64,000 nucleotides of DNA, taken from Candidatus Bilamarchaeaceae archaeon. Its GTDB lineage: Archaea; Micrarchaeota; Micrarchaeia; Anstonellales; Bilamarchaeaceae. The position numbers and the translations under genes are program-made. The stretch is from assembly GCA_038851325.1 (NCBI GenBank), contig JAWCKZ010000001.1:35769-99768 (forward strand), read 5' to 3'. Positions 30,577 to 61,729 of this stretch are shown piece after piece. The notes under the pieces are model-generated. The model saw nothing but the letters and a program-made list of their open reading frames with translations. It was not told the DNA's origin and ran no database searches. Positions within the stretch are counted from its first letter, which is position 1, and the number at the start of each line of letters is the position of its first letter.

Positions 30577-30880
30577 TTTTTATGTATTCCTCCTGTTTTC
30601 TTAAGTTTCTTTCTGTTTTCTCTGTTTTCTAAATGTTTTCTATGTGCCGTGGGCTTATGTTTTTCTCAGGCCACGGCGGTCGTGGAGGTTTTCTTACTAT
30701 TTAGGTTTTCTTACTGGTTTTTTAAGTTTCTTTCTGTTTTCTCTGCTTTCTAAATGTTTTCAAGGTGCCGCAGGCTTGCTGTTTCTCTCAGGCTGCGGCG
30801 GTCGTGGAGGTTTTCTTACTGGTTCTTTAAGTTTTTTTCTGTTTTCGCTATCTTTCTCATTGTGTTATATTTAAAAACGA
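30577..30880 (-). repeat. about 2.5 tandem copies of a ~105-nt RNA-gene-associated repeat module, co-oriented with and immediately 5' of tRNA-Arg(TCG)
   Basis: The reverse complement matches the modules at 44599..44717 and 45876..46126 (…cctccacgaccgCCGTGGcctgagaaaaacataagcCCACGGcacatagaaaacatttagaaaacagagaaaacagaaagaaacttaagaaaa…). The second copy has CCGCAG…CTGCGG arms, i.e. two compensatory changes. Confidence 0.8.
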
Positions 30881-42498: not shown

Positions 42499-43062
42499 GT
42501 GGTTGGTATGATAAAGAAGTGCTGGTATGCAAAAGATAGTGTGCCAATGAAAAACGAGGAAACCAAAAATAATGAGAAAAAAATAAGAAAATTGATAAGT
42601 AGCGTTCCAGGGCTAAAAGAAGGATTAATGATTACTGGGATTATGCTTACTCTCCCGTTATGTCAAATCAACGAAACAGGGCGTAGTAATAAATCGTCCC
42701 GACCTTATGTTGTGCAATCCGCTGTGGCTGAGAAGAAGCCACAACCATCGCTTATTTTACACGAAGGAATGCTCAAAGAATTAGTACTCCTTATGAAAGA
42801 GGGCAGTTCTGCCAGTTTCAGGCTAACTGAAAGAACTCAGACTGCGATATTCCTTAAGATAGTCAGCATATCTGAAGAGGGGGTGGACATTGCGCTTGGT
42901 ACAGAAATCCTTGGAGAAAAACCTGCCCGCCAAATTGTCAGAGTCAGTTATGGCGAAGCAGAGCTGGGGAACAACCCGATTAAGAAGCTTGCTGTAAAAA
43001 AAGAAAGCGATGGAGAAGTGACCATTAGAATATTCTTAAACACCAGCTTTAAACCTCAATGA
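42499..43062 (+). CDS. hypothetical protein (187 aa)
   Basis: ORF track only. Confidence 0.4.
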   Translation: MVGMIKKCWYAKDSVPMKNEETKNNEKKIRKLISSVPGLKEGLMITGIMLTLPLCQINETGRSNKSSRPYVVQSAVAEKKPQPSLILHEGMLKELVLLMKEGSSASFRLTERTQTAIFLKIVSISEEGVDIALGTEILGEKPARQIVRVSYGEAELGNNPIKKLAVKKESDGEVTIRIFLNTSFKPQ

Positions 43063-44278
43063 GTTCCTTGAAGAATTTTGGAAGTGCGAAAGCCGCTTTA
43101 TGTATCTCTGGAGTATAGTATTGTAATCCTTTTAACTCCCGCGCTCTTTTTTCGTCAAATTTAAATGGGTCGTATTTTTTTGAGCAAAAAGAAAATCCTA
43201 TAACCCCGCTCGGATAGGTCGGCACATTCGCATAATAATATTTGTATATTGGAAATAGTTTCTTGTTAAAGCATGCCATATCCTTCAAAAGGTCTTGATG
43301 GTAGTACATAGATTCTGATTGCGTTACCACGATTCCATCCGCCCTGCACGCATCTCTCAGATCTCTATAAAAATCCTCTTTGAAAAGCGGTTCTGCTGGA
43401 CCTACAGGATCAGACGAGTCAACGAGTATAACATCATAATAGTCTTTTTTTCCTTTTATGAATTTTGAGCCGTCTTCGTAGAATATCGTTAACCGTGGGT
43501 CGTTGAGTGCACAACTAACCTTCGGAAAATATTTTTTCGCTGCACCTACAACCATCTTATCTATCTCGCACATATGGATCTCGTTAACACACTTATGCTT
43601 TGCAATCTCGCGCACAGCGCCACCATCTCCTCCTCCTATGACAAGAACGCGCTGCGGGTTAGGATGAACAAGCAGAGGAACATGCACTATCATCTCATGA
43701 TAAACAAACTCGTCATATTCGGTGAGCATCACCGCACCATCAAGCACCATCATCCTTCCAAAATGATCTGTCTCAAAAATTTGCATGTGCTGGAAAGGTG
43801 AGTGCTCATCGTGCAATAGTTTCTTAATTCCGATTGATAGCGCTCTCCCTTTAAGCGTCTCTTCCTTTTCCTGGAATGCCGCTTTTCTATAAATCGTGTT
43901 TATCTTGTAATCCGCTGCGCCAAACCATTTTTTCGTAAACTCTGCTGCCTTATAGGGATCAAAGTGTTTACAACTGAAAATGTCAATATATGCATACCCT
44001 GCTTTTGTTTTTTGGTCTATTCCAAAATGGCCTGTAATTCCTGATGTTTCTATAAGCTGAAAAGCAGAGTAGCCTTTAACTCGTGGGTCTTCTCCGAAAT
44101 ATACAATATGTGGTTCACCGTATCTTTTCATATCTATCAGTTTGCACAGTTCTATTATCCACTGCTCGATTGTTTCCTTTGATTCGACTTTCTTAGAGTC
44201 GCACATAATTAGATCAACCGAAGCAAGCATCCCCCATACGCCAAACCTTTTGTATTCGTGTTCTGTATATTCGTACAT
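43049..44278 (-). CDS. speE: fused AdoMetDC-like domain + spermidine synthase (aminopropyltransferase)
   Basis: The N-terminal ~130 aa parallel AdoMetDC (…GYSAFQLIETSGITGHFGID…YAYIDIFSCKHF… versus canonical …ESHISIHTWPE…YAAVDIFTCG…). The C-terminal part is spermidine synthase (…VLVIGGGDGGAVRE…, …VDSSDPVGPA…). Confidence 0.75.
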   Translation of the reverse strand: MYEYTEHEYKRFGVWGMLASVDLIMCDSKKVESKETIEQWIIELCKLIDMKRYGEPHIVYFGEDPRVKGYSAFQLIETSGITGHFGIDQKTKAGYAYIDIFSCKHFDPYKAAEFTKKWFGAADYKINTIYRKAAFQEKEETLKGRALSIGIKKLLHDEHSPFQHMQIFETDHFGRMMVLDGAVMLTEYDEFVYHEMIVHVPLLVHPNPQRVLVIGGGDGGAVREIAKHKCVNEIHMCEIDKMVVGAAKKYFPKVSCALNDPRLTIFYEDGSKFIKGKKDYYDVILVDSSDPVGPAEPLFKEDFYRDLRDACRADGIVVTQSESMYYHQDLLKDMACFNKKLFPIYKYYYANVPTYPSGVIGFSFCSKKYDPFKFDEKRARELKGLQYYTPEIHKAAFALPKFFKELIEV

Positions 44279-44358: not shown

Positions 44359-44510
44359 CCCTAAAACGCAGGGAGGGGGCTGATGTTTTCTTCTATTCCC
44401 CTCCCTTCATTTTTAGGGCTAATTCTGATTCCCTCCCTAAAACGCAGGGAGGGGGCTGATGTTTTCTTCTATTCCCCTCCCTTCATTTTTAGGGCTAATT
44501 CTGATTCCCT
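44359..44510 (+). repeat. two exact tandem copies of a 76-nt unit, each a long near-perfect hairpin (CCCTAAAA…GGGAGGGG…CCCCTCCC…TTTTTAGGG)
   Basis: Copy 1 at 44359-44434 and copy 2 at 44435-44510, read directly. ORF-track entries 44142..44459 and 44383..44628 are translations of this repeat. Confidence 0.85.
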
Positions 44511-44598: not shown

Positions 44599-44717
44599 AG
44601 AAAACCTCCCACGACCGCCGTGGCCTGAGAGAAACATAAGTCCACGGCACATAGAAAACATTAGGAAAACAGAGAAAACAGAAAGAAACTTAAGAAAACA
44701 GGAGGAATACATAAAAA
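44599..44717 (+). repeat. single copy of the ~105-nt RNA-gene-associated module, ending exactly at the 5' end of the candidate ncRNA
   Basis: …gaaaacctcccacgaccgccgtggcctgagagaaacataagtccacggcacatagaaaacattaggaaaacagagaaaacagaaagaaacttaagaaaacaggaggaatacataaaaag. The last ~30 nt are identical to the 30 nt preceding tRNA-Arg(TCG). Confidence 0.8.
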
Positions 44718-44923
44718 GGTGAGGAGAGTAGTCTGCCTTCTGTTGTAGCGGCATTTTACTACGCGGCGTAAAGCCTTGCACAATCATCGAAAGGAAAGCG
44801 TCCGTTTCATCCAAGTCAAAGCTTGGTATCGTTTCTGTTACGCTTTCAGCTCCTTAAGAGCATCACATTCTCTTGTGGGCAGAACTTCCTCCGAATCATT
44901 CGGTGAGCCGCTCTCTCCTCACC
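44718..44923 (+). ncRNA. candidate structured ncRNA (~206 nt) closed by an 11-bp terminal helix; identity unresolved (SRP RNA-like or RNase P-like motifs)
   Basis: 5' GGTGAGGAGAG pairs perfectly with 3' CTCTCTCCTCACC. Internal hairpins include CCAAG-TCAAAG-CTTGG and CCGAA-TCA-TTCGG, plus a GNRA-tetraloop-like …UCGAAAGGAAAGCGUCCG…. No ORF of at least 60 aa on this strand. It sits where the repeat module otherwise precedes tRNAs. Confidence 0.5.
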
Positions 44924-45214: not shown

Positions 45215-45222
45215 AAAAAAAA
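45215..45222 (-). terminator. oligo-T tract (T8 on the minus strand) immediately 3' of tRNA-Phe
   Basis: aaaaaaaa on the plus strand at 45215-45222, directly after the tRNA discriminator base. Confidence 0.4.
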
Positions 45223-45350
45223 TGCCGCGGGCCGGAGTTTTTGGCAGCTGCGCGGGCAGCCTGAACCAGCGACCCCTCGGTCTTCAGCCGAGTGCTCTCC
45301 CAACAGCACGCCCTAGTGGCGAACCACCCAGAGCTCTGAGCTACCGCGGC
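45223..45350 (-). tRNA. tRNA-Phe (anticodon GAA) with two non-canonical introns: about 32 nt in the D-loop and about 23 nt in the T-loop
   Basis: Minus-strand reading: GCCGCGG-TA-GCTC-AG[AGCTCTGGGTGGTTCGCCACTAGGGCGTGCTG]TTGGGA-GAGC-A-CTCGG-CTGAAGA-CCGAG-GGGTC-GCTGG-TTCA[GGCTGCCCGCGCAGCTGCCAAAA]ACT-CCGGC-CCGCGGC-A. Removing the bracketed segments gives a canonical 73-nt tRNA-Phe with the classic AGTTGGGAGAGC D-arm. Confidence 0.6.
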
Positions 45351-45395
45351 ACTGATAAGATGTTAATGCCAAAAAAATAAAAAATTTGGACAATC

Positions 45396-45485
45396 TTAAA
45401 ATTCTTCTTCCTCTTCTTCCTCCCATTCTTCTTCGTCTTCTTCCTCTTCCCACTCCTCTTCTTCATCTGCTTCGAAATGCCTCAT
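45396..45485 (-). CDS. possible 29-aa ultra-acidic mini-ORF (MRHFEADEEEEWEEEEDEEEWEEEEEEF)
   Basis: Read from the sequence. May simply be an artefact of a GAA/GAG-rich tract. Confidence 0.2.
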   Translation of the reverse strand: MRHFEADEEEEWEEEEDEEEWEEEEEEEF

Positions 45486-45875: not shown

Positions 45876-46126
45876 AAACTTACCTGAGAAAAACTAAACA
45901 GCTGCCGTGGCCTGAGAAAAACATAAGCCCACGGCACATAGAAAACATTTAGAAAACAGAGAAAACAGAAAGAAACTTAAGAAAATAGTAAGAAAACCTA
46001 AATAGTAAGAAAACCTCCACGACCGCCGTGGCCTGAGAAAAACATAAGCCCACGGCACCTTGAGAACATTTAGAAAACAGAGAAAACAGAAAGAAACTTA
46101 AGAAAATAGTAAGAATAAATAAAAAC
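45876..46126 (+). repeat. two tandem copies of the ~105-nt RNA-gene-associated module immediately 5' of tRNA-Arg(TCT)
   Basis: …ccgtggcctgagaaaaacataagcccacggcacatagaaaacatttagaaaacagagaaaacagaaagaaacttaagaaaatagtaagaaaacctaaatagtaagaaaacctccacgaccgccgtggcctgag… read directly. A TATA-like cttatataaa sits about 45 nt upstream, around 45829-45838. Confidence 0.8.
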
Positions 46127-46232
46127 GGGCCCGTGGCGCAGCCTGGATAGCGCAGCAGCCTTCTATGCGTTTCGAACTTCGTTCAAACCCCAAGAGAGCT
46201 GACGGTCGCGAGTTCAAATCTCGCCGGGCCCG
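46127..46232 (+). tRNA. tRNA-Arg (anticodon TCT) with a 31-nt intron at the canonical 37/38 position
   Basis: GGGCCCG-TG-GCGC-AGCCTGGATA-GCGC-A-GCAGC-CTTCTA[TGCGTTTCGAACTTCGTTCAAACCCCAAGAG]A-GCTGA-CGGTC-GCGAG-TTCAAAT-CTCGC-CGGGCCC-G. The T-arm and acceptor are perfect. The anticodon stem has one G/A mismatch at its base. Confidence 0.6.
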
Positions 46233-48761: not shown

Positions 48762-49604
48762 ATGAGAAGACTTCTACTATCATTGTTGATTTTAGGGATG
48801 CTAGTTCTCATCGGTTGTATTGGTGGCGGCGCAAAGAAATGCCAGACAAATGCAGATTGCCCGCCCTATCAGGAATGCAATGTAACCAGCGGTACATGCG
48901 AACTGAAGCCTGGCTACTGCAACACTGACGCCGAATGTGGCGATGAATTAATGACATGCAATACGAATACCCATATCTGCGAATTTAAAGCTGGAAGATG
49001 CCGGTTTGATAAGGATTGCCCATCATGGCAGGTCTGTAACGCTGAACAAAGATGCATAGCAGCTCCAGGGTATTGTGATTCTGATGCGCAATGTAATACT
49101 ACATTTGAGTATTGTAACCCAACAAGACATACGTGTTCTCCAAAACCAGGTTACTGCACTGCTGACACAGATTGTGCAGGATGGGAAACGTGTAAGATAA
49201 GCGAAGGAAGATGTAGACCAATAAGCGGGAGATGCAATGTAGACGGCGATTGTGAAACCTGGCAACTCTGCGATCTGAAGACGCATTGGTGTAAAGCTAA
49301 ACCAGAGTATTGCATAAACGATGCAGATTGCGGCACATGGGCCACTTGCGATACAAGTACACATAGATGTAGGGCACGGCAAGGGTATTGCTCAATGGAT
49401 AACGACTGCAATGAATGGGAATATTGCAGCACAACTACACGGAGATGCACGCCACGAAAGGATCACTGCAATACAAATGCCGACTGCGGTGCATGGCAAG
49501 TTTGTGTGAACCACTTCTGTGCTGCTAAAACAGGTTATTGCAATACAAATGATGACTGCGTAGCTGGCGAGGTTTGCAATCAGCAAACGCATATGTGCCA
49601 ATGA
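48762..49604 (+). CDS. secreted or lipoprotein-like protein built from about 12 Cys-rich repeats of ~24 aa
   Basis: Signal peptide with a lipobox-like LIGCIGG. Repeated C-x-x-D-x-D/E-C-x-x-W/Y-x-x-C-N/D…C units (e.g. CQTNADCPPYQECNVTSGTCELKPGY). Confidence 0.6.
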   Translation: MRRLLLSLLILGMLVLIGCIGGGAKKCQTNADCPPYQECNVTSGTCELKPGYCNTDAECGDELMTCNTNTHICEFKAGRCRFDKDCPSWQVCNAEQRCIAAPGYCDSDAQCNTTFEYCNPTRHTCSPKPGYCTADTDCAGWETCKISEGRCRPISGRCNVDGDCETWQLCDLKTHWCKAKPEYCINDADCGTWATCDTSTHRCRARQGYCSMDNDCNEWEYCSTTTRRCTPRKDHCNTNADCGAWQVCVNHFCAAKTGYCNTNDDCVAGEVCNQQTHMCQ

Positions 49605-61414: not shown

Positions 61415-61729
61415 TTTTGAACCCGGGTCACAGGCTTTCTTCCCGAACCGCAGGGAACCTACGGTTCCCCTCAGTTTGAGGTTCCTCCTGATCCCCTCCC
61501 TTAGAGAATCCCTATGAGCAACCTAAGTTCTCCTCAGGGCTTTTGATGAAACTTTTGCCCGAACCGCAGGGAACCTACGGTTCCCCTCAGTTTGAGGCTC
61601 TCCCTGACTCCCATCTTTAAGGAGATCGCCTACAACCTGAGAACTCTCTCAGGGCTTTTTGGGAACCTCTTGCTCTTAGAAAACCCAAGAGCATAAGTTT
61701 TCCTCAGGGTTTTGATGAAACTTTTGCCC
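61415..61729 (+). repeat. about 2.3 tandem copies of a 116-nt repeat with a 40-nt invariant core containing a GGGAACC-TAC-GGTTCCC hairpin and recurring CTCAGGGYTTTT elements
   Basis: The core cccgaaccgcagggaacctacggttcccctcagtttgagg is identical at 61442-61481 and 61558-61597. Flanks are divergent. No cas genes and no CRISPR-like spacing. Confidence 0.75.

What the first reader, a model, noticed from the sequence alone, without database searches (positions are those of the whole stretch)
45223..45350. tRNA-Phe(GAA) interrupted by two non-canonical introns (D-loop and T-loop)
The minus strand carries a perfect GCCGCGG/CCGCGGC acceptor pair 128 nt apart. Between them lie a classic tRNA-Phe anticodon arm (CTCGG-CTGAAGA-CCGAG) and the textbook Phe D-arm sequence AGTTGGGAGAGC, but the D-arm is split (GCTCAG | 32 nt | TTGGGAGAGC). 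A second segment of about 23 nt sits inside the T-loop (GCTGG-TTCA | GGCTGCCCGCGCAGCTGCCAAAA | ACT-CCGGC). Excising both yields a canonical 73-nt tRNA, and a T8 tract follows the 3' end. Introns at non-37/38 positions, and multiple introns in one tRNA, are known only from a few archaeal lineages. Both inserts contain internal hairpins compatible with relaxed bulge-helix-bulge substrates. Standard tRNA finders run in default mode would probably miss this gene.
Basis: partly seen in the sequence, partly recalled or inferred. Interest (0 to 1): 0.75.

Follow-up and report, generated by a model that had tools for sequence, protein, structure and literature searches.

The report
Two-intron tRNA-Phe gene in a Micrarchaeon
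This is a real phenylalanine tRNA gene interrupted by two short introns in unusual places (D-loop and T-loop), but it comes from an archaeal group (Micrarchaeia, DPANN) already known for such broken-up tRNA genes and for the enzyme that repairs them, so it is a good annotation catch rather than a new kind of biology.

Summary
Minus strand 45350..45223 is a 128-nt GC-rich gene. Removing 32 nt from the D-loop (tRNA position 15/16) and 23 nt from the T-loop (56/57) gives a 73-nt tRNA-Phe(GAA) that ARAGORN calls. ARAGORN and Rfam both miss the unspliced gene. Both inserts form relaxed bulge-helix-bulge (H-B-h') motifs in exactly the register needed (shuffle P = 0.002 and 0.0001). The source is a Candidatus Bilamarchaeaceae MAG (class Micrarchaeia). 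Two family relatives settle the junctions. One has an intronless tRNA-Phe with an identical D-loop. The other has a homologous D-loop intron at the same site and an intact T-loop, TTCAACT, equal to the predicted spliced loop. Exon differences are five compensatory double changes and none disruptive, so it is not a pseudogene. Family relatives encode the three-unit epsilon2 splicing endonuclease (full-length match to PDB 4FZ2), which is shown experimentally to cut relaxed motifs. Multi-intron tRNAs in ARMAN-2 were published in 2011. My genome scan found D-loop-interrupted tRNA-Phe genes in 19 species from several archaeal phyla, 14 of them with two or more inserts. Verdict: new member of a known kind, low-to-moderate interest. 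Splicing itself and the host's own endonuclease gene are inferred, not shown.

The parts
45223..45350 (-). Whole pre-tRNA-Phe(GAA) gene, 128 nt, from G1 to discriminator A73. No CCA is encoded.
   Evidence: The identical sequence is in an independent MAG contig, L001 (GCA_038870055.1). The GC-rich island 45217-45357 matches the gene.
45336..45350 (-). Exon 1 (tRNA positions 1-15): acceptor 5' strand GCCGCGG, U8 A9, D-stem 5' strand GCUC, A14 G15.
   Evidence: It is identical to the 5' exon of L029 and L035 and differs at one compensated position from intronless L024.
45304..45335 (-). Intron 1, 32 nt, at tRNA position 15/16 (D-loop): A-GCUCUGGGUGGUUCGCCACUAGGGC-GUGC-UG. It has a 7+3 bp hairpin (h') capped by UUCG. 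Intron GUGC pairs with exon GCUC to form the central helix H (3 of 4 pairs, one U.U). The bulges are AG|A and UG|U.
   Evidence: A homologous intron sits at the same site in L029 and L035, with the same H and with pair-preserving changes in h'.
45263..45303 (-). Exon 2 (tRNA positions 16-56): UUGGGA, D-stem 3' strand GAGC, anticodon arm CUCGG-CUGAAGA-CCGAG, variable loop GGGUC, T-stem 5' strand GCUGG, U54 U55 C56.
45240..45262 (-). Intron 2, 23 nt, at tRNA position 56/57 (T-loop): A-GGCUGCCCGCGCAGCU-GCCA-AA. It has a 6-bp hairpin (h'). Intron GCCA pairs with exon UGGU (positions 51-54) to form H (4 of 4 pairs). The bulges are UC|A and AA|A.
   Evidence: the BHB-like fold is the local minimum-free-energy structure. 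The intron is absent from L029, L035 and L024, whose T-loops read TTCAACT or TTCAAAT.
45223..45239 (-). Exon 3 (tRNA positions 57-73): A57 A58 C59 U60, T-stem 3' strand CCGGC, acceptor 3' strand CCGCGGC, discriminator A73.
45215..45222 (-). T8 tract immediately after A73. This is an inferred archaeal oligo-T transcription stop.
   Evidence: The sequence is shown; the function is inferred from general knowledge of archaeal termination.
45371..45387 (-). A/T-rich box (AAATTTTTTATTTTTTT) at about -37 to -21 from the mature 5' end. This is an inferred TATA-like promoter element.
   Evidence: It is inference only: no archaeal promoter model was available, and the bacterial scan is not applicable.

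Best explanation
This is a functional tRNA-Phe(GAA) gene of a Candidatus Bilamarchaeaceae archaeon (class Micrarchaeia, DPANN). It is transcribed as a precursor of about 128 nt carrying two protein-spliced (BHB-type) introns: 32 nt at position 15/16 in the D-loop and 23 nt at position 56/57 in the T-loop. In the precursor each intron makes its own hairpin (h'). Four intron nucleotides just upstream of the 3' splice site pair with four exon nucleotides just upstream of the 5' splice site (helix H). For intron 1, H is a pseudo D-stem; for intron 2, H borrows the 5' strand of the T-stem. Each splice site then lies after the second nucleotide of a 3-nt bulge. This is a relaxed H-B-h' motif, not the strict h-B-H-B-h' motif. 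The host's three-unit homodimeric epsilon2 splicing endonuclease, which has broad substrate specificity, is inferred to cut at the four sites. An RtcB-type ligase is inferred to join the 15-, 41- and 17-nt exons, after which CCA is added. What is shown: sequence, geometry, orthology, compensatory evolution, and the enzyme's presence in the family. What is inferred: transcription, cleavage, ligation, and the enzyme's presence in this particular genome.
For: (1) The spliced product is a canonical 73-nt tRNA-Phe by ARAGORN, with all 21 cloverleaf pairs intact and with U8, A14, G18 G19 G20, U33, GAA, G53 U54 U55 C56, A58, C61 and A73 present. (2) Both introns sit in the exact BHB register: H is 3/4 and 4/4 pairs, h' is 7 and 6 contiguous pairs, and the bulges are 3 nt. 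Shuffle P values are 0.002 and 0.0001. Intron 2's motif is the local MFE fold. (3) Orthologs in the same family support the junctions. L024/L025 carry an intronless gene that is 66/73 identical, with the identical D-loop GCTCAGTTGGGAGAGC. L029 and L035 carry a homologous D-loop intron at 15/16 and an intact T-loop TTCAACT that equals the predicted spliced loop, and are 68/73 identical. Exon differences are five compensatory double changes, one U.G to C-G change and one loop change, with none disruptive. (4) The intron 1 stem changes between lineages keep pairing, and the H strand GUGC is invariant. (5) The host is identified by a 100% identical PolD small subunit named Candidatus Bilamarchaeaceae. 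Ca. Bilamarchaeum dharawalense encodes a 391-aa EndA that aligns end to end with the ARMAN-2 epsilon2 EndA structure 4FZ2 (E = 3e-131). There are 1387 homologs at E <= 1e-30, and all named hits among the top 120 are from Micrarchaeota. [quoted passage not shown] (7) No other tRNA-Phe is present in the 64-kb window.
Against: There is no RNA evidence for transcription or splicing. The endonuclease and ligase genes of this genome were not located; none lies in the window. A second tRNA-Phe gene elsewhere in the genome cannot be excluded. Helix H of intron 1 has an internal U.U mismatch, its outer helix h is only 2 weak pairs, and intron 2 has no outer helix, so neither site is a strict BHB. The conformer with both BHB motifs formed is 8.4 kcal/mol above the global MFE of the precursor. 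The whole-precursor fold is not more stable than shuffles (z = -1.1). The promoter assignment is by eye only.
Confidence: 0.88

Rival explanations
1. It is a decaying or redundant tRNA-Phe pseudogene disrupted by two insertions, and an intact tRNA-Phe gene elsewhere in the genome does the work.
For: Only 64 kb of the genome could be examined, so a second copy cannot be excluded. A family relative has an intronless gene. The gene does not have the ~120-nt upstream cassette shared by the two tRNA-Arg genes in the window.
Against: All exon stems and conserved positions are intact, and divergence from relatives is entirely compensatory or neutral. Both inserts have splice-competent geometry in the exact register. 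The D-loop intron is retained with pair-preserving changes in another lineage of the family and in two assemblies. The identical sequence is in an independent MAG. An oligo-T stop follows the gene directly.
Confidence: 0.06
2. The inserts are not endonuclease-type introns. They are either kept in the mature RNA as expansion hairpins or removed by some other route, such as a different nuclease or self-splicing.
For: Neither site is a strict h-B-H-B-h' motif, and cleavage has not been observed.
Against: At 23 and 32 nt the inserts are far too short for group I or group II introns. An insert between C56 and A57 would destroy the T-loop and its G19-C56 contact (general tRNA knowledge). The geometry fits the relaxed motifs that the epsilon2 enzyme cuts in vitro (PMC3239211). 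The relatives' uninterrupted loops show what the functional loop sequence is.
Confidence: 0.03
3. It is a chance resemblance: a GC-rich intergenic stretch that happens to contain tRNA-like pieces.
For: None beyond the failure of standard tRNA finders on the unspliced sequence.
Against: The spliced product is 66-68/73 identical to orthologs with compensatory changes only. ARAGORN calls it. The shuffle probabilities for the BHB register are 0.002 and 0.0001.
Confidence: 0.01

Closest known systems
Disrupted tRNA genes of ARMAN-1/-2 (Candidatus Micrarchaeum acidiphilum) spliced by the three-unit epsilon2 EndA (Fujishima et al. 2011, PMC3239211; structure 4FZ2, PMC3488258)
   Same: The host is in the same class (Micrarchaeia). 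[quoted passage not shown] The same full-length epsilon2-type enzyme is present in the window's family.
   Different: The order differs (Anstonellales/Bilamarchaeaceae, not the ARMAN lineage). The isoacceptor differs (Phe). The position pair differs (15/16 in the D-loop plus 56/57 in the T-loop). I could not see the ARMAN-2 intron table because the supplement is not held, so I cannot say whether ARMAN-2 tRNA-Phe is interrupted.
Multi-intron tRNA genes of Thermoproteales and other Crenarchaeota and Thaumarchaeota, cut by the (alpha-beta)2 EndA (Sugahara et al. 2008 and Fujishima et al. 2010, as cited in PMC4033280; tRNAscan-SE 2.0, PMC8450103)
   Same: Both have up to three BHB-type introns per gene at non-canonical positions, relaxed HBh'/hBH motifs, genes missed by default finders, and gain and loss between close relatives.
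   Different: The superphylum and the endonuclease architecture differ. The window encodes PolD and gyrase, which fit a DPANN rather than a crenarchaeal genome. No evidence was sought here for intron transposition between tRNA genes.
D-loop-interrupted, multi-intron tRNA-Phe genes in other archaeal MAGs found here (for example L005 Woesearchaeota, 190 nt; L003 Aenigmatarchaeota, 237 nt; Brockarchaeota, Bathyarchaeia and Nitrososphaerales loci)
   Same: All are tRNA-Phe(GAA) with an insert in the D-loop. 14 of 19 have two or more inserts. L003 and L005 combine a D-loop insert with a T-loop insert at about 56/57.
   Different: The intron sequences are unrelated, the number and exact sites of inserts differ, and the insert positions in those loci are only alignment-based (about +/- 2 nt) and were not checked for BHB geometry.
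[quoted passage not shown]
   Same: These are ectopic and multiple protein-spliced introns in one tRNA gene, including the D- and T-arm regions.
   Different: The host is a eukaryote with a different endonuclease complex, so this is only an analogy.

Membership tests
Archaeal protein-spliced (BHB-type) tRNA intron at a non-canonical position | Removing the insert restores a canonical cloverleaf tRNA with the conserved nucleotides. | tested here: met
   ARAGORN calls the 73-nt product tRNA-Phe(GAA). All 21 pairs are intact. The junctions match intronless (L024) and T-loop-intact (L029) orthologs.
Archaeal protein-spliced (BHB-type) tRNA intron at a non-canonical position | Relaxed BHB motif (HBh' or hBH): a 4-bp central helix with a 3-nt bulge carrying the splice site, plus at least one flanking helix. 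| tested here: met
   Intron 1 has H 3/4, bulges AG|A and UG|U, h' 7 bp and h 2 bp. Intron 2 has H 4/4, bulges UC|A and AA|A, and h' 6 bp. Shuffle P values are 0.002 and 0.0001.
Archaeal protein-spliced (BHB-type) tRNA intron at a non-canonical position | Strict h-B-H-B-h' motif (3-4-3 with both outer helices), as required by alpha4 and alpha'2 enzymes. | tested here: not met
   H of intron 1 has a U.U mismatch and only 2 weak outer pairs. Intron 2 has no outer helix in register. A broad-specificity enzyme is therefore needed.
Archaeal protein-spliced (BHB-type) tRNA intron at a non-canonical position | The host encodes a broad-specificity splicing endonuclease (epsilon2 or (alpha-beta)2 type). 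| tested here: inconclusive
   None is in the 64-kb window. The type species of the family has a full-length epsilon2 EndA (4FZ2 match, E = 3e-131), and the enzyme is widespread in Micrarchaeota. The window's own genome could not be searched.
Archaeal protein-spliced (BHB-type) tRNA intron at a non-canonical position | The spliced RNA, excised intron or cleavage products are observed. | not testable with these tools
   No transcriptome data or enzyme assay is available.
Archaeal protein-spliced (BHB-type) tRNA intron at a non-canonical position | Detection by an intron-aware tRNA finder (tRNAscan-SE 2.0 archaeal mode or SPLITS). | not tested
   These programs are not available here. ARAGORN with -i handles anticodon-loop introns only and finds nothing. 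The tRNAscan-SE 2.0 intron models were trained on Crenarchaeota/Euryarchaeota and Thaumarchaeota (PMC8450103).
tRNA-Phe (archaeal elongator) | Anticodon GAA in a 7-nt loop with U33 and purine 37, discriminator A73, G20, and a class I variable loop. | tested here: met
   The anticodon loop is C32 U33 G34 A35 A36 G37 A38. A73 and G20 are present, and the variable loop is 5 nt. That these are identity elements comes from general knowledge of Phe identity and was not tested.
tRNA pseudogene | Broken stems, lost conserved nucleotides, or non-compensated substitutions relative to orthologs. | tested here: not met
   There are no broken pairs. The differences from orthologs are five compensatory double substitutions, one U.G to C-G change and one loop change.

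The most novel reading that the evidence does not exclude
The three Bilamarchaeaceae tRNA-Phe genes capture ongoing BHB-intron turnover inside one DPANN family. The patterns are no intron (L024), 15/16 + 37/38 (L029/L035) and 15/16 + 56/57 (the window). The D-loop intron is shared by descent. The T-loop intron is a recent gain specific to the window's lineage, in what may be the only tRNA-Phe gene of a reduced genome. If so, translation there depends on relaxed-motif splicing at two sites that disrupt the D-loop/T-loop elbow. This would also give a tractable case for asking how such introns are gained outside Thermoproteales.
Probability: 0.45. Interest if true: 0.35.

Novelty: new member of a known kind. 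Interest (0 to 1): 0.22.

Why it matters
The practical value is for annotation. This tRNA-Phe gene is invisible to ARAGORN and to the Rfam tRNA model, and a genome annotated with such tools would appear to lack tRNA-Phe. Kaneta et al. 2018 (PMC5829648) say explicitly that incomplete tRNA sets in DPANN and Asgard genomes point to undetected disrupted genes needing manual curation, and this is one such gene resolved. It extends multi-intron tRNAs with relaxed BHB motifs from the ARMAN lineage to another order of Micrarchaeia. The family comparison gives a small, clean example of intron presence/absence polymorphism. It does not change what is known about tRNA splicing.

Tried and rejected
- ARAGORN with intron options (-i, -i0,60, -io) on the unspliced locus found nothing.
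- Rfam at gathering score and at E<=10 gave no tRNA hit on the locus.
- Alternative splice registers shifted by one nucleotide give the same product but no BHB (H 2/4 or 0/4).
- An alternative helix UAGC/GCUG for intron 1, seen in a local MFE fold, would give a non-canonical 4-nt D-loop and is not conserved in L029, so I rejected it.
- My first idea, Thermoproteales origin (suggested by the short RNase P RNA), was rejected because of PolD, gyrase and the Bilamarchaeaceae protein identity.
- The first metagenome scan with the 41-nt central exon found nothing.
- Synteny walks gave only one tRNA-Phe locus. The walk from PolD small-subunit orthologs (L022-L028) yielded it (the intronless gene in L024/L025). 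The walk from ThyX orthologs (L030-L034) yielded none.
- The search for EndA in the window was negative, both by tblastn with the Bilamarchaeum enzyme and by Pfam on 37 ORFs.
- The window's own EndA could not be picked out of the 1387 homologs.
- A relaxed structural filter and a GC-island scan found no further hidden tRNA genes in the window.
- The bacterial-type promoter/terminator scan is uninformative for an archaeon.
- The Fujishima 2011 supplement, Sugahara 2007 and the 2025 ARMAN-2 EndA paper gave no table of intron positions. Whether 15/16 and 56/57 are already catalogued positions therefore rests only on my memory that D-loop and T-loop sites are listed for Thermoproteales.

Full report
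**Observation.** The minus strand from 45350 to 45223 reads GCCGCGGTAGCTCAG-[32 nt]-TTGGGAGAGCACTCGGCTGAAGACCGAGGGGTCGCTGGTTC-[23 nt]-AACTCCGGCCCGCGGCA and is followed by eight T. Deleting the two inserts gives a 73-nt sequence that ARAGORN calls tRNA-Phe(GAA) with a standard cloverleaf. All 21 stem pairs are intact, and U8, A14, G18-G20, U33, G53 U54 U55 C56, A58, C61 and A73 are present. The unspliced gene is missed by ARAGORN in default mode and with anticodon-intron options, and by the Rfam tRNA model at gathering score and at E<=10. In a 42% GC window, a 141-nt GC-rich island at 45217-45357 coincides with the precursor, introns included.

**Splice geometry.** I scored every pair of candidate cut sites for the archaeal bulge-helix-bulge arrangement: a 4-bp central helix H, a 3-nt bulge on each strand with the cut after bulge nucleotide 2, and flanking helices h and h'.

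- Intron 1 cuts after precursor nucleotides 15 and 47. H is exon GCUC against intron GUGC (3 of 4 pairs, one U.U), which makes it a pseudo D-stem. The bulges are AG|A and UG|U. The inner hairpin has 7+3 pairs capped by UUCG. The outer helix has 2 weak pairs.
H is exon UGGU (positions 51-54) against intron GCCA (4 of 4 pairs). The bulges are UC|A and AA|A. The inner hairpin has 6 pairs, and there is no outer helix in register.

Both are relaxed H-B-h' motifs, not strict ones. Shuffling each intron while keeping the exons reproduces this geometry in the required register with probability 0.002 (intron 1) and 0.0001 (intron 2). Intron 2's motif is the local minimum-free-energy fold. The precursor conformer with both motifs formed is 8.4 kcal/mol above the global minimum.

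**Source organism.** The window encodes the PolD small subunit, FtsZ, topoisomerase I and several aminoacyl-tRNA synthetases by Pfam. It also has ORFs that I read by eye from their N-termini and sizes as gyrase A/B, RadA and a thermosome subunit. The PolD small subunit is 100% identical to an NCBI protein named Candidatus Bilamarchaeaceae archaeon. The same locus, with the identical pre-tRNA, lies on a contig of MAG GCA_038870055.1. The family belongs to Micrarchaeia in the DPANN kingdom Nanobdellati. My first guess of Thermoproteales, prompted by a short RNase P RNA nearby, was wrong.

**Comparative evidence.** Three relatives settle the junctions.

- L024/L025 (PolD 74% identical) carry an intronless tRNA-Phe. 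It is 66/73 identical to the predicted spliced product and has the identical D-loop GCTCAGTTGGGAGAGC.
- L029 is a 135-kb JGI contig whose ThyX is 71-77% identical to its best named hits, both Bilamarchaeaceae proteins. Its 117-nt tRNA-Phe has a clearly homologous 31-nt intron at the same D-loop site (AGCU...GGGCGUGC), an intact T-loop TTCAACT equal to the window's predicted spliced loop, and a 13-nt insert at 37/38.
- L035, an independent ENA assembly, reproduces the L029 gene with one substitution. It turns a U.G pair of the intron stem into U-A.

Across the three exon sets the differences are five compensatory double substitutions, one U.G to C-G change and one loop change, with none disruptive. 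The intron's H strand GUGC and the outer stem pairs are conserved, while the apical part varies with pairing kept. This is the pattern of a gene and an intron under selection, not of a pseudogene.

**Mechanism.** Ca. Bilamarchaeum dharawalense encodes a 391-aa endonuclease that aligns end to end with the ARMAN-2 epsilon2 EndA structure 4FZ2 (E = 3e-131). There are 1387 homologs at E <= 1e-30. The top 120 are 72-100% identical, most are 389-391 aa long, and all the named ones come from Micrarchaeota. Fujishima et al. 2011 showed that the ARMAN-2 enzyme cuts both strict and relaxed motifs, including at a non-canonical position. [quoted passage not shown] I therefore infer that the window's precursor is cut at four sites by an epsilon2 enzyme, that the 15-, 41- and 17-nt exons are ligated, and that CCA is added. 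The window itself has no EndA or RtcB gene, and I could not search the rest of the genome. The host enzyme and the splicing event remain inferred.

**How unusual it is.** A scan of one genome per archaeal and bacterial species for tRNA-Phe with a 14-44-nt insert in the D-loop gave 19 loci. They come from Brockarchaeota, Bathyarchaeia, Nitrososphaerales, Aenigmatarchaeota, Woesearchaeota and unclassified archaea. Of these, 14 have two or more inserts and 5 have three. Two DPANN genomes combine a D-loop insert with a T-loop insert at about 56/57. Reviews list multi-intron tRNAs for Crenarchaeota, Nanoarchaeum, Methanopyrus, Korarchaeum and ARMAN-1/2 (PMC4033280). tRNAscan-SE 2.0 searches for such introns iteratively by default in archaeal mode, with intron models trained on Crenarchaeota/Euryarchaeota and Thaumarchaeota (PMC8450103). 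Kaneta et al. 2018 note that undetected disrupted tRNA genes remain in DPANN genomes (PMC5829648). The finding is therefore a new member of a known kind.

**Rival explanations.** A pseudogene with an intact copy elsewhere cannot be formally excluded from 64 kb, but it conflicts with the compensatory evolution, the splice-competent geometry and the conserved D-loop intron. Retention of the inserts, or another removal route, conflicts with their size, with the damage a 56/57 insert would do to the T-loop, and with the uninterrupted loops of relatives. Chance is excluded.

**What the family comparison adds.** The three intron patterns are none, 15/16 + 37/38, and 15/16 + 56/57. This suggests a shared D-loop intron plus lineage-specific gains or losses, a small case of intron turnover outside Thermoproteales. 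That is the most novel reading the data allow, and it is of moderate interest at best.

Noticed in passing
window 44718-44923 (-): The archaeal RNase P RNA is only 206 nt long (Rfam RF00373, 95.6 bits, full model span). It has large deletions where the model has 46- and 39-nt segments, so it is a reduced form in a Micrarchaeia genome. It has its own TTTAAA box at about -29 to -24.
   Followed up: partly
window 30580-30830 (-), 44600-44715 (+), 45887-46002 (+), 46008-46123 (+): A ~116-121-nt repeat occurs five times. Two tandem copies end 3-4 nt before each of the two tRNA-Arg genes, like a shared promoter/leader cassette. One copy on the opposite strand ends 2 nt from the 3' end of the RNase P RNA. 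tRNA-Phe has none. MAG contig L001 of the same species has one copy fewer upstream of tRNA-Arg(TCT). The core sequence was not found in any other fetched locus.
   Followed up: partly
window 46127-46232 (+): This tRNA, apparently tRNA-Arg(UCU), has a 33-nt intron in the anticodon loop. Rfam finds it but default ARAGORN misses it. An intron-containing tRNA sits at the same place upstream of the UPF0147-PolD genes in relatives L022-L027, where ARAGORN -i gives inconsistent isotype calls.
   Followed up: partly
window 44359-44434 and 44435-44510: There is a perfect 76-nt tandem duplication in the non-coding stretch between the spermidine synthase gene and the RNase P RNA.
   Followed up: no
window about 61420-61610 (+): Two copies of a GC-rich element (CCCGAACCGCAGGGAACCTACGGTTCCCCTCAGTTTGAGG), which contains a palindrome, lie about 120 nt apart in a non-coding gap.
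   Followed up: no
L034 about 2160-2500: The gap upstream of ThyX in another Micrarchaeota contig holds what looks like a ~185-nt disrupted tRNA. It has acceptor GCAGGGA/TCCCTGC, T-arm GAAGG-TTCGAAC-CCTTC and a class II-like D-arm. ARAGORN with intron options does not report it.
   Followed up: no
L003 3852-4088 (-) and L005 2288-2477 (+): These are extremely interrupted tRNA-Phe genes in other DPANN MAGs: 237 nt in Aenigmatarchaeota and 190 nt in Woesearchaeota. Each has three inserts, including D-loop and T-loop sites.
   Followed up: partly
window 45395-45480 (-) and L024 2901-2993 (-): A short, very acidic reading frame (ending ...EEEWEEEEEEEF*) ends 45 nt upstream of tRNA-Phe. The relative with the intronless tRNA-Phe has a similar 30-aa acidic ORF next to its tRNA-Phe, but in the opposite relative orientation.
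   Followed up: no
window 43049-44278 (-): A single 409-aa ORF fuses an S-adenosylmethionine decarboxylase domain to a spermidine synthase (Pfam AdoMet_dc + Spermine_synt_N + Spermine_synth).
   Followed up: no
window 48762-49604 (+): A 280-aa protein with an N-terminal hydrophobic segment consists of repeated Cys-rich units of about 30 residues (CxxxxDCxxWxxC...) and matches DUF5885. Many other ORFs in the window start with a similar hydrophobic segment followed by a GC(I/V)G-like motif.
   Followed up: no
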